Program-made: the position numbers and the translations under genes | Part shown: one piece after another, positions 1 through 7,072 of the stretch | Layout of the letters: each line of letters opens with the position of its first letter | How positions within the stretch are numbered: the first letter of the stretch is position 1 | The notes under the pieces: model-generated | Seen by the model: the letters and a program-made list of their open reading frames with translations, nothing else | Told to the model about the DNA's origin: nothing | The model's database searches: none | Source: a virus | Strand: one strand, 5' to 3' | DNA: 64,000 bases | Virus record (IMG/VR): IMGVR_UViG_3300032116_000122 | Location: 1-64,000 of that record

Positions 1-306
1 TGGTGCTTTCGCGCTGGTTGTCTTGATGTGCTACATCACGTCACATTACGATTTGGCCAGCACTACACGACAGTAACAGTGTTAGGATTACCTACCATAT
101 TGTAGGCCTGTTACTACGCTTGCCGTGATACTGCCCACGGCTGCAACCTGTGTAATATAGAAACGGGAAGCCATTACACGTGCTTTGGTTTATGAACCAC
201 TACCCTATGGGATACACCCAACACGTTTCTATTGCGTGCCTGCACACTTATGGTCCTGCAGAACCATGCACTTAGTGCCTAGGTCGGCTGTACATCACCG
301 CCCAGA
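1..306 (-). ncRNA. Large, densely structured non-coding RNA (GOLLD-like candidate), truncated by the window edge
   Basis: Paired segments: 11-17/57-63, 72-79/108-115, 122-127/136-141, 150-156/173-179, 250-256/261-267, plus a 9-bp pseudoknot 157-165/224-232. C-A mismatches on + become G-U pairs on -. No ORF over most of the span; lies downstream of a tRNA. Confidence 0.55.
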
Positions 307-308
307 TC

Positions 309-524
309 TCAGCCCTTGAAGTTGCGACGAATCGCTTCCGGATCACCGATCCAGAAGAAGCCGGTGCCACAACTCTTGGCAAGCCACTCGTCAAGGAGTT
401 TATGATAGAACTCCTTGTCGACCAGCGGGCTGGACTCTTTCTCCAGCTCACCACATTCGTGACACACGTCACTGTGCACAGGACCCTTGCGGGTCATGTA
501 CTCTATCTCACCACAAAAGCGCAT
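309..524 (-). CDS. Small hypothetical protein with CxxC
   Basis: 71 aa; purine-rich RBS (AGAAAGGGGG) upstream; CHEC motif. Confidence 0.6.
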   Translation of the reverse strand: MRFCGEIEYMTRKGPVHSDVCHECGELEKESSPLVDKEFYHKLLDEWLAKSCGTGFFWIGDPEAIRRNFKG

Positions 525-550
525 TTTGCGCCCCCTTTCTGTTAGTGGAG

Positions 551-623
551 TGGGGCGTGTAGGGATCGAACCTACGACCGAGGAATTATGAGTTCCCTGC
601 TCTAACCACTGAGCTAACGCCCC
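551..623 (-). tRNA. tRNA with CAU anticodon (probably Ile2, otherwise elongator Met)
   Basis: GGGGCGT-TAGCTCAGTGGTTAGAGC-A-GGGAA-CTCATAA-TTCCT-CGGTC-GTAGG-TTCGATC-CCTAC-ACGCCCC-A; canonical cloverleaf, paired 1:72 so not initiator, no encoded CCA. Confidence 0.95.
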
Positions 624-625
624 AA

Positions 626-766
626 GTGAGCATTTTTACGACATACTCAGGTCGGCGTGGTGCATAACGGATGCGGCTTATCCACGACTACCGCACCGGC
701 CCTCCGCATAATATTACCCGCAGAGGGGTGGGTTGAGCAGTATTGTTATGCCTTGCTCAGAGGCAT
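626..766 (-). ncRNA. Tandem H-type pseudoknots directly upstream of the tRNA
   Basis: ATGCCT-C-TGAGCA-AGGCAT-AACAATAC-TGCTCA (766-734) and CGAC-C-TGAGTA-T-GTCG-TAAAAA-TGCTCA (654-627) share architecture; hairpin and a third possible pseudoknot lie between them. Confidence 0.55.
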
Positions 767-834
767 CTGATTGACGGGTGGCAAGCCCCAGTTAGTCCCG
801 ACAGAAGGGGGAAGTCCTGTCTCGTGCCTTTTGA

Positions 835-1083
835 TCAGATCTTGTTGAGGCAAAGCCGAGGCTTCGCCACGTACTGACCGATTCCGATGTTTGCACCCCT
901 GTAGATGCACTGGAGGCGCTCAGCCACGGGCTGGTTCTCGGGCGTGACACGTGGCCCACTCGCTTGGGTCAGCCAAGTCAAAGCGGTCAGGGCGTCTGCC
1001 CTGAGCCTGAGCCACTCACCATGGCTTGAGGGGTTTTCCCCCTCCAAGAGGAGCGCCAACTCCTCAATTTCCTTGATGTTCAT
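835..1083 (-). CDS. Hypothetical protein
   Basis: ATG 1083 preceded by AGGAAGGG; 82 aa; GC-rich codons. Confidence 0.6.
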   Translation of the reverse strand: MNIKEIEELALLLEGENPSSHGEWLRLRADALTALTWLTQASGPRVTPENQPVAERLQCIYRGANIGIGQYVAKPRLCLNKI

Positions 1084-1157
1084 TATTTTTTGCCCTTCCT
1101 GATAATGCTCCACTCAATCATGGTGGAGTCAATGGTTGATACAGTCAATAAGATCTT

Positions 1158-1336
1158 GCCAGTGCATGGATCAGCCAGTCTCGCAAGGGGGTAAGACGGC
1201 GATCAACACACACTGGCTTATGCTATGTATACGCCTATGTGCTAATAGCAACTACAAACGGGGGGTGAGTAGTGCTAAAGCAGACGTTGCACTCAGATAA
1301 CGTTGTACAACGAAAGCATAGGCCCATACATAGGCA
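1158..1336. other. Structured intergenic segment (long stem-loop plus multibranch)
   Basis: GCCAGTG 1158-1164/CACTGGC 1211-1217 with nested pairs; TATGTAT 1224-1230/ATACATA 1326-1332; GCCTATG 1233-1239/CATAGGC 1317-1323. Confidence 0.35.
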
Positions 1337-1341
1337 CAAGT

Positions 1342-1416
1342 TGTGACATTTGTCACATGGTAGTGACAATTGCCACACGGTGAGACATTTGTCACATGGC
1401 TATGACAATTGTCACA
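1342..1416. promoter_or_regulatory. Four tandem 16-bp palindromic boxes matching the CRP/GlxR consensus TGTGA-N6-TCACA
   Basis: tgtgacatttgtcaca (1342), agtgacaattgccaca (1362), tgagacatttgtcaca (1381), tatgacaattgtcaca (1401); period 20/19/20. Confidence 0.7.
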
Positions 1417-1500
1417 CTAGGCACCTCGTACTGGACGGCGCGCCGTTTGCGACGCTATCCGGTCCAGCCAGACGCAGGGAGCAGAGATGCTCCACACACT

Positions 1501-1531
1501 ACGGTCGTGGCAGAAACACGGTCGTGGCAGA
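1501..1531. repeat. 14-bp direct repeat, two copies
   Basis: acggtcgtggcaga at 1501 and 1518. Confidence 0.8.
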
Positions 1532-1541
1532 GGCAAAGAAA

Positions 1542-1569
1542 TAATGCCCCCCATTTCTGGGGGGCATTA
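1542..1569 (-). terminator. Intrinsic terminator of 1582-2172
   Basis: 12-bp stem taatgcccccca/tggggggcatta followed by TTTCTTT on the - strand. Confidence 0.8.
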
Positions 1570-1581
1570 CTCCTCATCAGG

Positions 1582-2172
1582 TCAGGCGTTGACGCCCAAC
1601 TTGGCGGAGGCGAGATTGCTCATCGCCACGAGACGCTCAAGGAACTTGCGTCCCTCAGGAGTCAGGGTGTCGAGAGCACACACCTTGGCGGCATGGTCGA
1701 ACCACGTCTGAGACACCTTGTCCATCTGGACTTGGTACTGCTCATTGGTCAGTTCATCCTTGCTCTTGGTCTCCTTGCCAATCCGCTGAAGCAACGTGTA
1801 AGCGTTCTTCTGCGTCTTGGCAGTTGCCAATGCCAGTTCCACTTGGTCCACTTCCTTCTCCATCAGGAGTTGGAACGCACCGTAGTAGTTGGTGAATGGC
1901 TGAGAACCGGCGAGCGACGACACGGTGTTCGGGAGCGACGCGAACCGTCCGAATGCGACGATGAGTCGCCCGAATCCGTTCGGAGCCTTGCCGATGGTTT
2001 CCGTCCACGCCTTGGCGACTTCCGAGGTTTCGACCTTCTCCGGAGAGAGTTGAGCGATCTCGTTCGCCACCTTGGCGAGGTCCGCGAAGAATGTCTCCGC
2101 AGCCGCGCGAGCGGTCTGGAACGCACCGTGTCGGCGGATACCCTCCGCCAACCTGCTGATTAGTGTGGACAT
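1582..2172 (-). CDS. Hypothetical, probably helical protein (possible early gene)
   Basis: ATG 2172 with AGGAAGG RBS; strong GC3 bias; own terminator. Confidence 0.75.
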   Translation of the reverse strand: MSTLISRLAEGIRRHGAFQTARAAAETFFADLAKVANEIAQLSPEKVETSEVAKAWTETIGKAPNGFGRLIVAFGRFASLPNTVSSLAGSQPFTNYYGAFQLLMEKEVDQVELALATAKTQKNAYTLLQRIGKETKSKDELTNEQYQVQMDKVSQTWFDHAAKVCALDTLTPEGRKFLERLVAMSNLASAKLGVNA

Positions 2173-2454
2173 GAGTTGCCATACCTTCCTGCCCGTAGGC
2201 ATTATTCGGCTCGGGAATGAGCCTAAGTGGGGGCACGACCAAGCACTTGCGTGCTACGCGACTTGCGTCGCTAGGTGCGTGTTCCCTACCTACCACCATT
2301 ATGACGACGCCCACGATGCCTCCCCCGTAGGGCCCAGCCCCCAATGAGCACCCAACTACGCAATAGCCCTATTCTGCAACTTAACCGGTTACAACGTAAA
2401 GCCGCCCAACCGACAAGTGAGCTATAATAGACCTATTCTATTAGGAGGTAAACC

Positions 2455-3300
2455 ATGGCTGAATTACTGAGGAATAGTAAAGAAACCTGGGTTGATGCTG
2501 ATGACTTTGGGGGGTCATTTGATCGTAACAGAACTTTCCGTCTCGCTGACCCTGAAGCTCATATACGTAGACTAACCTCATTTACCTCTGGTATGGGGAA
2601 TGTTGCTTCTACTCACCCAGTATTTAGTAACAAACGAATGTATATTTCTCCAACTAGAGGGGAACAACACGTACCTAGCAATCTGATCAGGGTTGACGAA
2701 CATGATGAAGGGCTGATCCACACATCAGGTCACCTAGATGAGGCTAACACTGCAGCTTTACGTTTCGGCTACAAAGACGTAAACGACTACACCAACCGTG
2801 TTAGGTCGGGGAATGTAGATAAAGATGTCGAATCTGCCAGTACGCACTTAATATCTACTAGAATGCCATATACCCATCATATAGATATCATACCTGGAGA
2901 GCCTGGGTGGAGAAACGAACATGATGCGTTTACCGCAAAACTTATTGCTGCCGAGCACGACCCGCATTGGGGGTATACTGTGGAAGACGCAAAGTGGCAA
3001 GCATTTGGAGATGACACACAGAGTAGTAACTTTAGAGAGGCCATGGGCGAGTTAAGACACAGAGTACGGGGGGTTCTGCGCGACCCCAGTTCTCCAAGAG
3101 CTCGTGAAATAATGGAACACGCATTAGCAAACCCTGTACATCAGCCACAGCTGAGAGGTTGGGACCCAGAGAGGTTTAGTCCACAATTCCTTAAAATAAT
3201 ACAGCAATCTCGTAGAGGTCACGATGTTGCAGAAGACGTAGTTGACCTTAGCACTGGTACTTGGGCCAAGATCCACCCAGACGAATACTTCCCAACGTGA
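2455..3300 (+). CDS. Hypothetical protein
   Basis: 281 aa; AGGAGG RBS; TATAAT at 2423. Confidence 0.8.
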   Translation: MAELLRNSKETWVDADDFGGSFDRNRTFRLADPEAHIRRLTSFTSGMGNVASTHPVFSNKRMYISPTRGEQHVPSNLIRVDEHDEGLIHTSGHLDEANTAALRFGYKDVNDYTNRVRSGNVDKDVESASTHLISTRMPYTHHIDIIPGEPGWRNEHDAFTAKLIAAEHDPHWGYTVEDAKWQAFGDDTQSSNFREAMGELRHRVRGVLRDPSSPRAREIMEHALANPVHQPQLRGWDPERFSPQFLKIIQQSRRGHDVAEDVVDLSTGTWAKIHPDEYFPT

Positions 3301-6230: not shown

Positions 6231-6982
6231 TTGTTGATAGCTTTTTATTTGGCTGGGAACTTGACATGCTTGAGTGCCGCCTAATTGAGCTCTACGATGT
6301 AGTTGACAAGTTTTATCTTATTGAATCTTCAGTAACTTTTCAAGGATCTTCAAAACCCCTAATATACAAAAATAACTTAGATCGGTTTAAAGAGTGGTCC
6401 GATAAAATTGTCTATATTGAAGCAGAACTCCCAATAACCGACAATCCATGGGAAAGGGAGTACGCCGCTAGGGATTCTTTAAAAACGTATTTACAAGAAC
6501 TTAGTGACGACACAATTATCCTACACGGTGACGTAGACGAAATACCGACTAGAGAGTTTATTACAAACTTACCTAACACCCTGCGTTATGGGGAAATAAT
6601 CGTGCTTGATCATGCGTTCTATTCTATGGCTGTTGATTGGGAACACCCAGAAACAATTACTGGAATTGTAGTTAGTCACAAAAAGACTTTAAATAACTTG
6701 AGTATAAGCGCGTGGAGGCGAATGCGCACGACTACTAGGTCGGTAGCCAACGGTTGGCACTTTACTTGGCTGGGTGGCGAAGAGTTTATAAAATTAAAAG
6801 CAGCTTCTTTTTCCCACACTGAAACACATATTCAAGAATATATTCGACAAATGGGTGGGAAGCTGTATACTGATGGGTATCATGTTCTTGGTGAAAAACT
6901 CATACCTGTTGACATTGACAATACGTACCCTGAGTATATAAAGACACGGCGCTGCCCGCAAACATGGTTGCGCCCCCGCTAG
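6227..6982 (+). CDS. Glycosyltransferase family 17 (MGAT3-like)
   Basis: ELDMLECRLIELYDVVDKFYLIESSVTFQG..KPL, WERE, GDVDEIP, GWHFTWLGG. Confidence 0.85.
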   Translation: MIVDSFLFGWELDMLECRLIELYDVVDKFYLIESSVTFQGSSKPLIYKNNLDRFKEWSDKIVYIEAELPITDNPWEREYAARDSLKTYLQELSDDTIILHGDVDEIPTREFITNLPNTLRYGEIIVLDHAFYSMAVDWEHPETITGIVVSHKKTLNNLSISAWRRMRTTTRSVANGWHFTWLGGEEFIKLKAASFSHTETHIQEYIRQMGGKLYTDGYHVLGEKLIPVDIDNTYPEYIKTRRCPQTWLRPR

Positions 6983-7055
6983 CCGGGTGATGCGTCCGGT
7001 TGACGCAAGGTGTCTTATAAACACCGGTAGACGGGTTCAACTCCCGTACCCGGCA
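6982..7055 (+). tRNA. tRNA-Ile(UAU) with non-canonical D arm
   Basis: GCCGGGT-GA-TGCGTC-CGGTT-GACGCA-A-GGTGT-CTTATAA-ACACC-GGTAG-ACGGG-TTCAACT-CCCGT-ACCCGGC-A; all four stems perfectly paired; anticodon TAT at 7016-7018. Confidence 0.85.
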
Positions 7056-7072
7056 CTGTTATAATTGATAAC

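What the first reader, a model, noticed from the sequence alone, without database searches (positions are those of the whole stretch)
1..1083. Mixed RNA/protein operon: ORF, pseudoknots, tRNA, CxxC ORF, giant RNA
Seen: all elements lie on the minus strand, tightly packed, with no clear intrinsic terminator between them. Inference: one transcript processed into several RNAs. The 71-aa CxxC protein between the tRNA and the giant RNA is a candidate partner for an RNP, possibly countering host tRNA-cleaving defences.
Basis: inference. Interest (0 to 1): 0.7.

Follow-up and report, generated by a model that had tools for sequence, protein, structure and literature searches.

The report
Phage tRNA operon with structured RNAs
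A freshwater phage packs two small protein genes, two tRNAs and two expressed, structured non-coding RNAs (one about 500 bases long and in no RNA family library) into one co-oriented gene block, but the small cysteine-rich protein is an exchangeable passenger, not a partner of the RNAs.

Summary
The layout is real. On the minus strand lie an 82-aa ORF, a 211-nt spacer, tRNA-Met(CAU), a 71-aa ORF and a spacer cut by the contig end, with no terminator between them. An identical metagenome contig (L008) shows the rest. The "giant RNA" is at most 533 nt and ends exactly at a tRNA-Arg(UCU). Two small ORFs follow, and then the first strong terminator.

Both spacers appear as perfectly matching contigs in four freshwater RNA libraries from three studies.

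The long spacer (RNA-2) has homologues in only two other phage lineages. The three sequences support about 20 helices: 36 pairs show compensatory changes, against 14.5±2.9 in shuffles. It matches no Rfam family, GOLLD and ROOL included.

The short spacer holds two copies of an H-type pseudoknot. This motif is widespread in viral contigs (at least 119 hits), has flawless covariation, and usually sits 5-14 nt behind a stop codon.

The proposed ribonucleoprotein partnership fails its own refutation test. One RNA-2 phage lacks the ORF82-to-ORF71 cassette, and another has an unrelated ORF in that slot. Homologues of the 71-aa protein occur elsewhere without tRNAs or RNA-2.

The tRNAs match the phage's heavy use of AGA and AUA codons.

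Verdict: a real mixed operon with new RNA elements; the partner hypothesis is not supported.

The parts
1..305 (-). 5' 305 nt of RNA-2, a structured non-coding RNA of about 495-535 nt. It continues off the contig end and stops at tRNA-Arg(UCU) in the identical contig L008 (L008 1991-2520). RNA-library contigs begin at window 267.
   Evidence: L008 extension. Homologues in G001 and G027, with 128 consensus pairs of which 36 show both-side changes. No codon periodicity and 10-17 stops per forward frame. RNA contigs at L008 2029-2482, 2117-2503 and 2029-2393 twice. No Rfam match.
309..524 (-). 71-aa ORF ('ORF71'), a small probable metal-binding protein of unknown function. It is an exchangeable cargo gene.
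   Evidence: Conserved family with invariant C4, H17, C21, C24, H41, LDEW and G-G-FW. No Pfam or PHROG family. AF2 pLDDT 65, and the only look-alikes are uncharacterised phage proteins. Absent from G001, G002, G003 and G027.
550..623 (-). tRNA with anticodon CAU (Met, or Ile2 if lysidine-modified). G1-C72 pairs, so it is not a bacterial initiator.
   Evidence: ARAGORN; Rfam RF00005, 71.1 bits. The type beyond the CAU anticodon was read from the sequence and not tested.
627..654 (-). Pseudoknot B: CGAC-C-UGAGUA-U-GUCG-UAAAAA-UGCUCA. It ends 3 nt before the tRNA 5' end.
   Evidence: Copies in G013 (S1 CGUC/GACG) and G009 (S2 GGG/CCC) carry compensatory changes. The motif is virus-wide with perfect covariation.
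734..766 (-). Pseudoknot A: AUGCCU-C-UGAGCA-AGGCAU-AACAAUAC-UGCUCA. It has the same architecture with a different S1.
   Evidence: Motif search with a pairing test. It lies inside the RNA-library contigs.
624..834 (-). Spacer 1 / RNA-1: a 211-nt non-coding segment made of hairpins and pseudoknot modules. RNA-library contigs cover window 648-830.
   Evidence: No ORF. RNA contigs at L008 1466-1648, 1471-1635 and 1470-1630. Apart from the pseudoknot modules, no homologue was found in related phages. The third pseudoknot proposed at 656-696 has no comparator and is untested.
835..1083 (-). 82-aa ORF ('ORF82'), a conserved small phage protein of unknown function and the first gene of the unit.
   Evidence: Homologues in G027 (44% identity, E 4e-23) and G009. 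No Pfam or PHROG family.
1093..1501 (-). Conserved regulatory block upstream of the unit, holding four TGTGACA..TGTCACA palindromes at 1342-1416. It is the likely operator/promoter region. The promoter itself was not pinpointed.
   Evidence: 90% identical to G001, where it abuts RNA-2 directly. Palindromes. Similar palindromes are present in G002 and G027.
1537..1574 (-). Intrinsic terminator of the upstream 206-aa ORF. It marks the upstream boundary of the unit.
   Evidence: G+C-rich hairpin followed by a U-rich tail (GCAUUAUUUCU).

Best explanation
The stretch is the promoter-proximal half of one leftward, operator-controlled transcription unit of a freshwater myovirus.

The order of the unit is: operator/promoter block, ORF82, RNA-1 (about 185-210 nt, built from pseudoknot modules), tRNA-Met(CAU), ORF71, RNA-2 (about 495-535 nt, about 20 helices), tRNA-Arg(UCU), a zinc-ribbon-like ORF, a membrane ORF, terminator.

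The tRNAs supply AGA and AUA/AUG decoding for a phage that uses these codons heavily. Their maturation by host RNase P and RNase Z would at the same time cut the polycistronic RNA. That would free RNA-1 and RNA-2 as stable structured RNAs. The 3' end of RNA-2 would be the RNase P cut at tRNA-Arg.

RNA-2 is a lineage-restricted large structured RNA. In context it is analogous to GOLLD and ROOL, which are phage-encoded and lie next to tRNAs, but it is not a member of either family.

The pseudoknots are copies of a virus-wide intergenic module. Most likely it acts as a transcript-boundary element, giving end protection or serving as a processing signal.

ORF71 is a mobile cargo gene that happens to occupy the variable slot between tRNA-Met and RNA-2.

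Shown here: the layout, the structure and covariation, the presence in RNA libraries, and the lack of co-occurrence between ORF71 and RNA-2. Inferred: co-transcription, the processing route, and what the RNAs do.
For: Layout and boundaries.

Link between the regulatory block and RNA-2: the 410-bp upstream block is 90% identical in G001. There it is joined directly to RNA-2, which shows that this region drives RNA-2 and tRNA-Arg.

RNA-2 structure:
- The three homologues are 74-77% identical, with hairpin-sized indels.
- 94.8% of cells are paired.
- 36 pairs carry both-side changes, against 14.5±2.9 in shuffles (0 of 500 reach it) and 1-11 in slid controls.
- Conserved G-U pairs fit this strand only.

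RNA-2 is non-coding: mismatches by codon position are 34/44/44, against 27/18/56 and 13/4/27 in flanking ORFs. There are 88 gap columns and 10-17 stops per forward frame.

RNA-2 abuts tRNA-Arg in all three lineages.

Expression: perfectly matching contigs from four metatranscriptome runs of three studies lie on both spacers. Contigs of three studies begin at the same base, L008 2029, which is a weak hint of an RNA end.

Pseudoknot:
- 71 distinct cores have S1 pairs 1-3 Watson-Crick in 71 of 71, with 3-4 pair types each.
- S2 R..Y is 42 A..U plus 29 G..C and 0 mismatched.
- At least 119 viral hits against about 2 expected by chance (my own estimate from motif degeneracy and an assumed database size, not a tool output). 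In 596 Gb of cellular genomes there are 21 hits, about the number expected by chance (same kind of estimate).
- It lies 5-14 nt behind a stop codon in 53 of 85 contexts.

Codon use: AGA is 33% of Arg codons and AUA is 26% of Ile codons.

ORF71 independence.
Against: - No RNA contig bridges two elements, so co-transcription is not shown.
- Contigs cannot give strand, true ends or abundance, and DNA carry-over in RNA libraries cannot be excluded.
- The promoter was not located. The sigma-70 scan found none on the minus strand upstream of ORF82, and the host and its promoter type are unknown.
- RNA-2 covariation rests on three sequences, and the tested structure was derived from them.
- The most conserved block of RNA-2 (window 275-305) lies upstream of the point where the RNA contigs start. 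It shows no compensatory change, so it may serve a DNA-level or processing role instead.
- RNA-1 contigs end 24-42 nt short of the tRNA, which simple RNase P release does not predict.
Confidence: 0.6

Rival explanations
1. First reader's model. ORF71 is the protein partner of RNA-2 and/or the pseudoknot RNA. The complex counters host tRNA-cleaving defences.
For: Adjacency in this one phage. ORF71 has conserved Cys and His residues compatible with a small nucleic-acid-binding zinc module.
Against: - Of the three RNA-2 lineages, only this one has ORF71.
- ORF71 homologues in at least eight other contexts have no tRNA and no RNA-2 nearby. This was tested by BLAST, nhmmer and a covariance model.
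- The slot between tRNA-Met and the long spacer holds unrelated ORFs in G027 and G002.
- ORF71 has no recognisable RNA-binding fold or family.
Confidence: 0.05
2. There are several independent transcription units. Internal promoters drive the tRNAs and RNA-2 separately, and the mixed operon is only apparent.
For: The block is a mosaic of exchangeable cassettes. Many copies of the pseudoknot elsewhere are followed by sigma-70-like promoters. The invariant 29-nt block just upstream of the RNA contig start at L008 2029 could be a promoter-like DNA signal.
Against: - No promoter-like or terminator-like site was found on this strand inside the block.
- The invariant block occurs once in 64 kb, so it is not a reiterated phage promoter.
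- Helix 2 inside the upstream segment shows two compensatory pairs, which indicates that the segment is transcribed and folded.
- In G001 the upstream regulatory block is fused directly to RNA-2.
Confidence: 0.22
3. RNA-2 has no function of its own. It is just a long, structured 5' leader that controls or buffers maturation of tRNA-Arg, acting in cis.
For: RNA-2 ends at the first base of tRNA-Arg in all three lineages, and the last 10 nt (CCACCGAUGR) are conserved. Many other phages carrying this tRNA-Arg have ORF-free leaders of 300-400 nt with unrelated sequence.
Against: About 20 conserved helices over 500 nt is far more than known pre-tRNA leaders need. RNA-2 pieces are recovered in RNA libraries as contigs of 365-454 nt, with depths like or above the neighbouring mRNA pieces.
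Confidence: 0.13

Closest known systems
GOLLD RNA (Rfam RF01998)
   Same: Both are large structured RNAs encoded by phages next to tRNA genes. GOLLD env-38 lies downstream of a Met-tRNA, and tRNAs can sit inside GOLLD linkers (PMC12286853). RNA-2 lies downstream of tRNA-Met and is fused to tRNA-Arg.
   Different: No match to the GOLLD model even at E <= 10 on the full-length RNA. RNA-2 is 495-535 nt, whereas GOLLD is often over 800 nt. The universally conserved GOLLD 3' domain is absent. Oligomerisation was not tested.
ROOL RNA (Rfam RF03087)
   Same: Similar size class (several hundred nt), multi-helix architecture, phage or prophage origin, location near tRNA islands, and high RNA abundance in the literature (PMC12286853).
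   Different: No match to any Rfam model, ROOL included, in this phage or in 12 related loci. RNA-2 is known from only three phage lineages.
Classical H-type pseudoknots of phage and viral RNAs (T4 gene 32 leader, retroviral read-through pseudoknots, preQ1-I riboswitch)
   Same: Two stems with a 1-nt loop 1 and an A-rich loop 3. The motif lies close behind a stop codon, like read-through stimulators, or in a leader, like the gene 32 operator.
   Different: - No sequence or model match.
- Downstream genes are diverse, which argues against a ligand-specific riboswitch or an autogenous operator.
- The next in-frame stop follows after a median of 9 codons, which argues against read-through.
Phage tRNA gene clusters that supply rare codons
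   Same: tRNA-Arg(UCU), tRNA-Ile(UAU) and a CAU tRNA match the phage's heavy use of AGA and AUA.
   Different: Here the tRNAs are interleaved with protein genes and long structured spacers, not packed into a compact tRNA array.

Membership tests
GOLLD RNA (RF01998) | Match to the family covariance model, including the universally conserved 3' domain | tested here: not met
   cmscan of the window, of 1-2500 and of full-length L008 at E <= 10 gives no GOLLD hit.
GOLLD RNA (RF01998) | Length often over 800 nt | tested here: not met
   The spacer is bounded at 533 nt by the ORF71 stop and tRNA-Arg. Homologues are 535-609 nt.
GOLLD / ROOL (context feature) | Phage-encoded and adjacent to tRNA genes | tested here: met
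   A myovirus contig. RNA-2 lies between tRNA-Met and tRNA-Arg. Literature context in PMC12286853.
ROOL RNA (RF03087) | Match to the family covariance model | tested here: not met
   No hit at E <= 10. None at gathering score in 12 related loci.
GOLLD / ROOL | Homo-oligomeric nanocage assembly | not testable with these tools
   Needs native gel, SEC-MALS or cryo-EM of transcribed RNA-2.
tRNA (RF00005) | Cloverleaf covariance model above gathering score | tested here: met
   71.1 bits against a cut-off of 29 for window 551-623. 71.4 bits for tRNA-Arg in L008.
H-type pseudoknot | Two crossing stems, each supported by compensatory change | tested here: met
   S1 pairs 1-3 are Watson-Crick in 71 of 71 distinct copies, with 3-4 pair types each. 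S2 R..Y is 42 A..U plus 29 G..C and 0 mismatched. Within related phages: CGAC/GUCG against CGUC/GACG, and GAG/CUC against GGG/CCC.
preQ1-I riboswitch (RF00522) or other pseudoknot riboswitches | Model match and association with one functional class of downstream genes | tested here: not met
   No Rfam hit on a 56-nt query at E <= 10. Downstream genes include a DNA polymerase, a scaffold protein, a kinase, a DNA-binding protein (phrog_3636; Dps-like by my reading), zinc-ribbon ORFs and tRNAs.
Type III toxin-antitoxin antitoxin RNA (ToxI-like) or phage pseudo-ToxI decoy | Tandem array of near-identical repeats of about 34-36 nt | tested here: not met
   No such direct-repeat family in 624-834. 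The two pseudoknots are 110 nt apart and share only the S2 and loop consensus. No search for a toxin gene was made.
Small zinc-binding (CxxC-type) protein | Four conserved metal ligands in a knuckle or ribbon arrangement | tested here: inconclusive
   C4, H17, C21, C24 and H41 are invariant in six homologues. There is no Pfam or PHROG match, and the AF2 model reaches only pLDDT 65.

The most novel reading that the evidence does not exclude
RNA-2 is a new class of large phage RNA that is made covalently joined to tRNA-Arg. Like GOLLD and ROOL, it would act as an RNA-only assembly or scaffold in tRNA biology, for example by shielding, delivering or decoying phage tRNA against host anticodon nucleases. 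The pseudoknot would be a previously unnamed, virus-wide RNA module that marks or protects transcript ends just behind stop codons.
Probability: 0.2. Interest if true: 0.85.

Novelty: new variant of a known kind. Interest (0 to 1): 0.62.

Why it matters
Large structured phage RNAs next to tRNAs (GOLLD, ROOL) are abundant, form striking nanocages and still have no known function. A third, unrelated RNA in the same genomic niche, here fused base-to-base to a tRNA and recoverable from lake metatranscriptomes, would suggest that the link to tRNAs is functional rather than accidental. It would also offer a smaller, simpler case to study.

The pseudoknot is short, has flawless covariation, and is common in viral contigs. 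In cellular genomes its hits are close to the number I estimate from chance. Its fixed position 5-14 nt behind stop codons points to a general mechanism of phage mRNA handling that can be tested in vitro.

The negative result also matters. Adjacency of a small Cys-rich ORF to an RNA in one phage is not evidence of a ribonucleoprotein.

Tried and rejected
The contexts of the two closest ORF71 relatives (P0002 at 84%, P0003 at 59%) could therefore not be examined.
- Single-protein scans of viral contigs for ORF71, ORF82 and the 206-aa ORF found nothing.
- A GenBank phage DNA search of window 1-2400 matched only the tRNA.
- Single-sequence folding z-scores (-1.7 to -2.1) were too weak to decide anything.
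- nhmmer, a 20-mer scan of IMG/VR and the covariance model R1 found no RNA-2 beyond the three lineages. The other long leaders upstream of the same tRNA-Arg (clusters, G002) are not detectably related.
- In the laid RNA runs, no contig covered ORF82, ORF71, the tRNAs or the downstream ORFs. The two low-identity pieces on the tRNAs in run X18 carry loose ends and belong to other organisms.
- The ESM Atlas gave no usable lead for ORF71. Foldseek against PDB gave nothing below E = 1.
- The idea that the invariant 5' block of RNA-2 is a reiterated phage promoter was rejected, because it occurs once in the window.
- Read-through stimulation by the pseudoknot was rejected, because the next in-frame stop follows after a median of 9 codons.
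- A ligand riboswitch was rejected on the diversity of downstream genes.
Full report
**What the window is.** The window is bases 1-64000 of a 75,482-bp linear IMG/VR virus contig, 83% complete. Position 1 is therefore an assembly end. The contig encodes a terminase, an SPP1-type portal, a capsid protein, a tail sheath, baseplate J and a family A DNA polymerase, all on the plus strand. This makes it a myovirus. Sequencing runs that hold it are lake and freshwater metagenomes. The finding concerns a small minus-strand module at the contig end.

**Checking the observation.**
- ARAGORN and Rfam confirm a tRNA with anticodon CAU at 550-623 on the minus strand, at 71 bits.
- The 71-aa ORF (309-524) and the 82-aa ORF (835-1083) are open, have Shine-Dalgarno-like sequences and belong to conserved families. 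ORF71 has relatives of 45-84% identity with invariant C4, H17, C21, C24 and H41. ORF82 has relatives in two related phages (44% identity, E 4e-23).
- Neither ORF has a Pfam or PHROG family.
- Stretches 624-834 and 1-308 have no credible ORF.
- No terminator-like site lies on the minus strand within 1-1100. A strong terminator at 1537-1574 closes the upstream 206-aa ORF.
- Rfam finds nothing but the tRNA, even at E <= 10.

**Getting past the contig end.** A scan of metagenome contigs with an ORF71 alignment returned L008, a 4,336-bp contig. Over the overlap, L008 is identical to the reverse complement of the window, with window position = 2296 minus L008 position. L008 runs 2,040 bp further. 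Its layout is as follows:

| Element | L008 coordinates |
|---|---|
| 206-aa ORF | 94-714 |
| Terminator | - |
| Block with four TGTGACA..TGTCACA palindromes | - |
| ORF82 | 1213-1461 |
| Spacer 1 (211 nt) | 1462-1672 |
| tRNA-Met | 1673-1746 |
| ORF71 | 1772-1987 |
| Spacer 2 (533 nt) | 1988-2520 |
| tRNA-Arg(UCU) | 2521-2594 |
| Cys-rich ORF | about 2737-2906 |
| 56-aa membrane ORF | 2903-3073 |
| Interrupted 18-bp hairpin with a U-run (z = -5.1) | 3103-3155 |

Full-length L008 still matches no Rfam family other than tRNA.

**Are the spacers made as RNA?** I laid four freshwater RNA libraries from three studies on L008.
- Perfectly matching contigs lie on spacer 1 at 1466-1648, 1471-1635 and 1470-1630.
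- Perfectly matching contigs lie on spacer 2 at 2029-2482, 2117-2503 and 2029-2393 (twice).
- Two short pieces lie inside the 206-aa ORF.
- Contigs of three studies start at the same base, 2029. The tool rates this as a weak hint of a real RNA end.

Contigs cannot give strand, true ends or level, and DNA carry-over cannot be excluded. I therefore take this only as evidence that both spacers recur in RNA libraries.

**Is RNA-2 a structured RNA?**
- Related phages were collected through the terminase (378 relatives) and through the tRNA-Arg sequence (43 loci).
- BLAST, nhmmer, a 20-mer scan of all IMG/VR and a covariance model of the 5' domain agree on the distribution. Spacer 2 has homologues in only two other lineages, G001 and G027.
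- The three sequences are 74-77% identical, with hairpin-sized insertions.
- RNAalifold gives 128 pairs in 20 helices, with 94.8% of cells paired.
- 36 pairs carry changes on both sides. Shuffles give 14.5±2.9 (0 of 500 reach the observed value), and slid controls give 1-11. The caveat is that the structure was derived from these same three sequences.
- Conserved G-U pairs fit this strand only.
- Substitutions show no codon periodicity (34/44/44), whereas the flanking ORFs do (27/18/56 and 13/4/27). There are 88 gap columns and 10-17 stops per forward frame.
- In all three lineages RNA-2 ends at the first base of tRNA-Arg, behind a conserved CCACCGAUGR. RNase P cleavage would therefore define its 3' end. 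This step is inferred.

**The pseudoknots.** Spacer 1 contains two units of the form S1-C-UGAGYA-(U)-S1'-A-rich loop-UGCUCA.
- In related phages the same unit recurs with compensatory changes: S1 CGAC/GUCG against CGUC/GACG in G013, and S2 GAG/CUC against GGG/CCC in G009.
About 2 would be expected by chance (my own estimate from motif degeneracy and an assumed database size, not a tool output).
- In 596 Gb of prokaryote genomes there are only 21 hits, roughly the number expected by chance (same kind of estimate). About 13 of these look genuine, mostly from Saccharibacteria MAGs or probably mis-binned phage contigs.
- Among 71 distinct viral copies, S1 pairs 1-3 are Watson-Crick in 71 of 71, with three or four pair types each. 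The variable S2 pair is 42 A-U plus 29 G-C and never mismatched.
- The motif has no Rfam match.
- It typically lies 5-14 nt behind the stop codon of the upstream gene (53 of 85 contexts). The next start codon follows a median 32 nt later.
- Downstream genes are diverse. In five cases the next gene is a tRNA.
- The next in-frame stop follows after a median of 9 codons. Together with the gene diversity, this argues against read-through and against a ligand riboswitch.
- I read it as a general transcript-boundary module for end protection or processing. This reading is inference.

**The operon and the partner hypothesis.**
- The 410-bp block upstream of ORF82 is 90% identical in G001. There it is joined almost directly to RNA-2. 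G001 lacks the whole 776-bp cassette ORF82-RNA-1-tRNA-Met-ORF71.
- In G027 the order is ORF82 homologue, a 132-nt spacer, tRNA-Met, an unrelated 81-aa ORF, RNA-2, tRNA-Arg.
- In G002 two other ORFs and an unrelated 415-nt spacer fill the interval.
- The ORF71 family is absent from the whole records of G001, G002, G003 and G027.
- Conversely, ORF71 homologues in six IMG/VR loci, in G013 and in Phage NCTB sit among ordinary small ORFs. They have no tRNA within 8 kb, no Rfam family nearby and no RNA-2 in their records.
ORF71 is an exchangeable cargo gene in a variable slot.
- Its predicted fold (pLDDT 65) resembles only uncharacterised phage proteins.
- The phage uses AGA for 33% of Arg codons and AUA for 26% of Ile codons. 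Codon supply is therefore a sufficient reason for the tRNAs.

**Comparison with what is known.** GOLLD and ROOL are large phage-encoded RNAs near tRNA islands. GOLLD env-38 lies downstream of a Met-tRNA, and both assemble into RNA-only cages (PMC12286853). RNA-2 shares the niche and the size class, but it fails the covariance-model test for both families and lacks the GOLLD size. It is a distinct, narrowly distributed family. A catalogue of 10,006 candidate structured RNAs from IMG/VR exists (PMC10690425). I could not check whether RNA-2 or the pseudoknot is listed there, so the claim of novelty is relative to Rfam 15 only.

**Verdict.**
- The reading as one processed transcript is plausible but not shown.
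- The RNP and anti-defence reading is not supported.
- The worthwhile results are a new structured phage RNA of about 500 nt fused to tRNA-Arg, present in RNA libraries, and a virus-wide stop-codon-proximal pseudoknot.

Noticed in passing
In cellular genomes it is near the level I estimate from chance. It lies 5-14 nt behind stop codons. Some copies are followed by TTGACA..TATAAT-like promoters, T-runs or tRNAs.
   Followed up: partly
L269, L271, L272, L277, L278, L282, L285, L286 (Saccharibacteria MAG contigs): Eight of the 21 cellular hits to the pseudoknot pattern are in Saccharibacteria/Nanosynbacteraceae MAGs, with intact S1 pairing. Whether they are prophages or the organism's own elements is unknown.
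   Followed up: no
window 1342-1416: Four phased TGTGACA..TGTCACA palindromes lie in the block upstream of ORF82. The block is 90% conserved in G001, and similar palindromes are present in G002 and G027. This is a likely repressor operator array controlling the unit.
   Followed up: partly
L008 2597-2725 (beyond the window end): Directly after tRNA-Arg, GGUUGUAGCAGC and GCUGCUACAGCCAACC could form a long-range stem enclosing about 100 nt, ahead of the Cys-rich ORF. It could be a processing or regulatory hairpin.
   Followed up: no
window 1582-2202 (L008 398-600): The 206-aa ORF of unknown function has its own terminator and homologues in G002 and G027. It also appears as short perfectly matching contigs in two RNA libraries.
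   Followed up: no
L102 2550-2970 (record G009): A 465-nt non-coding region holds a tRNA-like gene with anticodon UCA (ARAGORN calls it 'SeC'), three CTAATCATTAG palindromes and a pseudoknot copy about 30 nt before the ORF82 homologue.
   Followed up: no
L098 3639-4053 and clusters of L103-L145: Many phages that carry the same tRNA-Arg(UCU) have ORF-free leaders of 300-415 nt directly upstream. These fall into several sequence clusters unrelated to RNA-2, so this position may be a hot spot for different long RNAs.
   Followed up: partly
L118 5264-5519: A group I intron (Rfam 83.6 bits) lies in a 103-kb phage record that also carries the tRNA-Arg.
   Followed up: no
L002 6100-7950: A short DNA motif recurs in several intergenic gaps between small ORFs. 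It shows up as repeated 'DCIII'-like translations. It may be a reiterated early promoter or operator.
   Followed up: no
window, all plus-strand ORFs of 200 aa or more: AGA is the commonest Arg codon (33%) and AUA makes up 26% of Ile codons. This matches the phage's tRNA-Arg(UCU), tRNA-Ile(UAU) at 6982-7056, and the CAU tRNA.
   Followed up: partly
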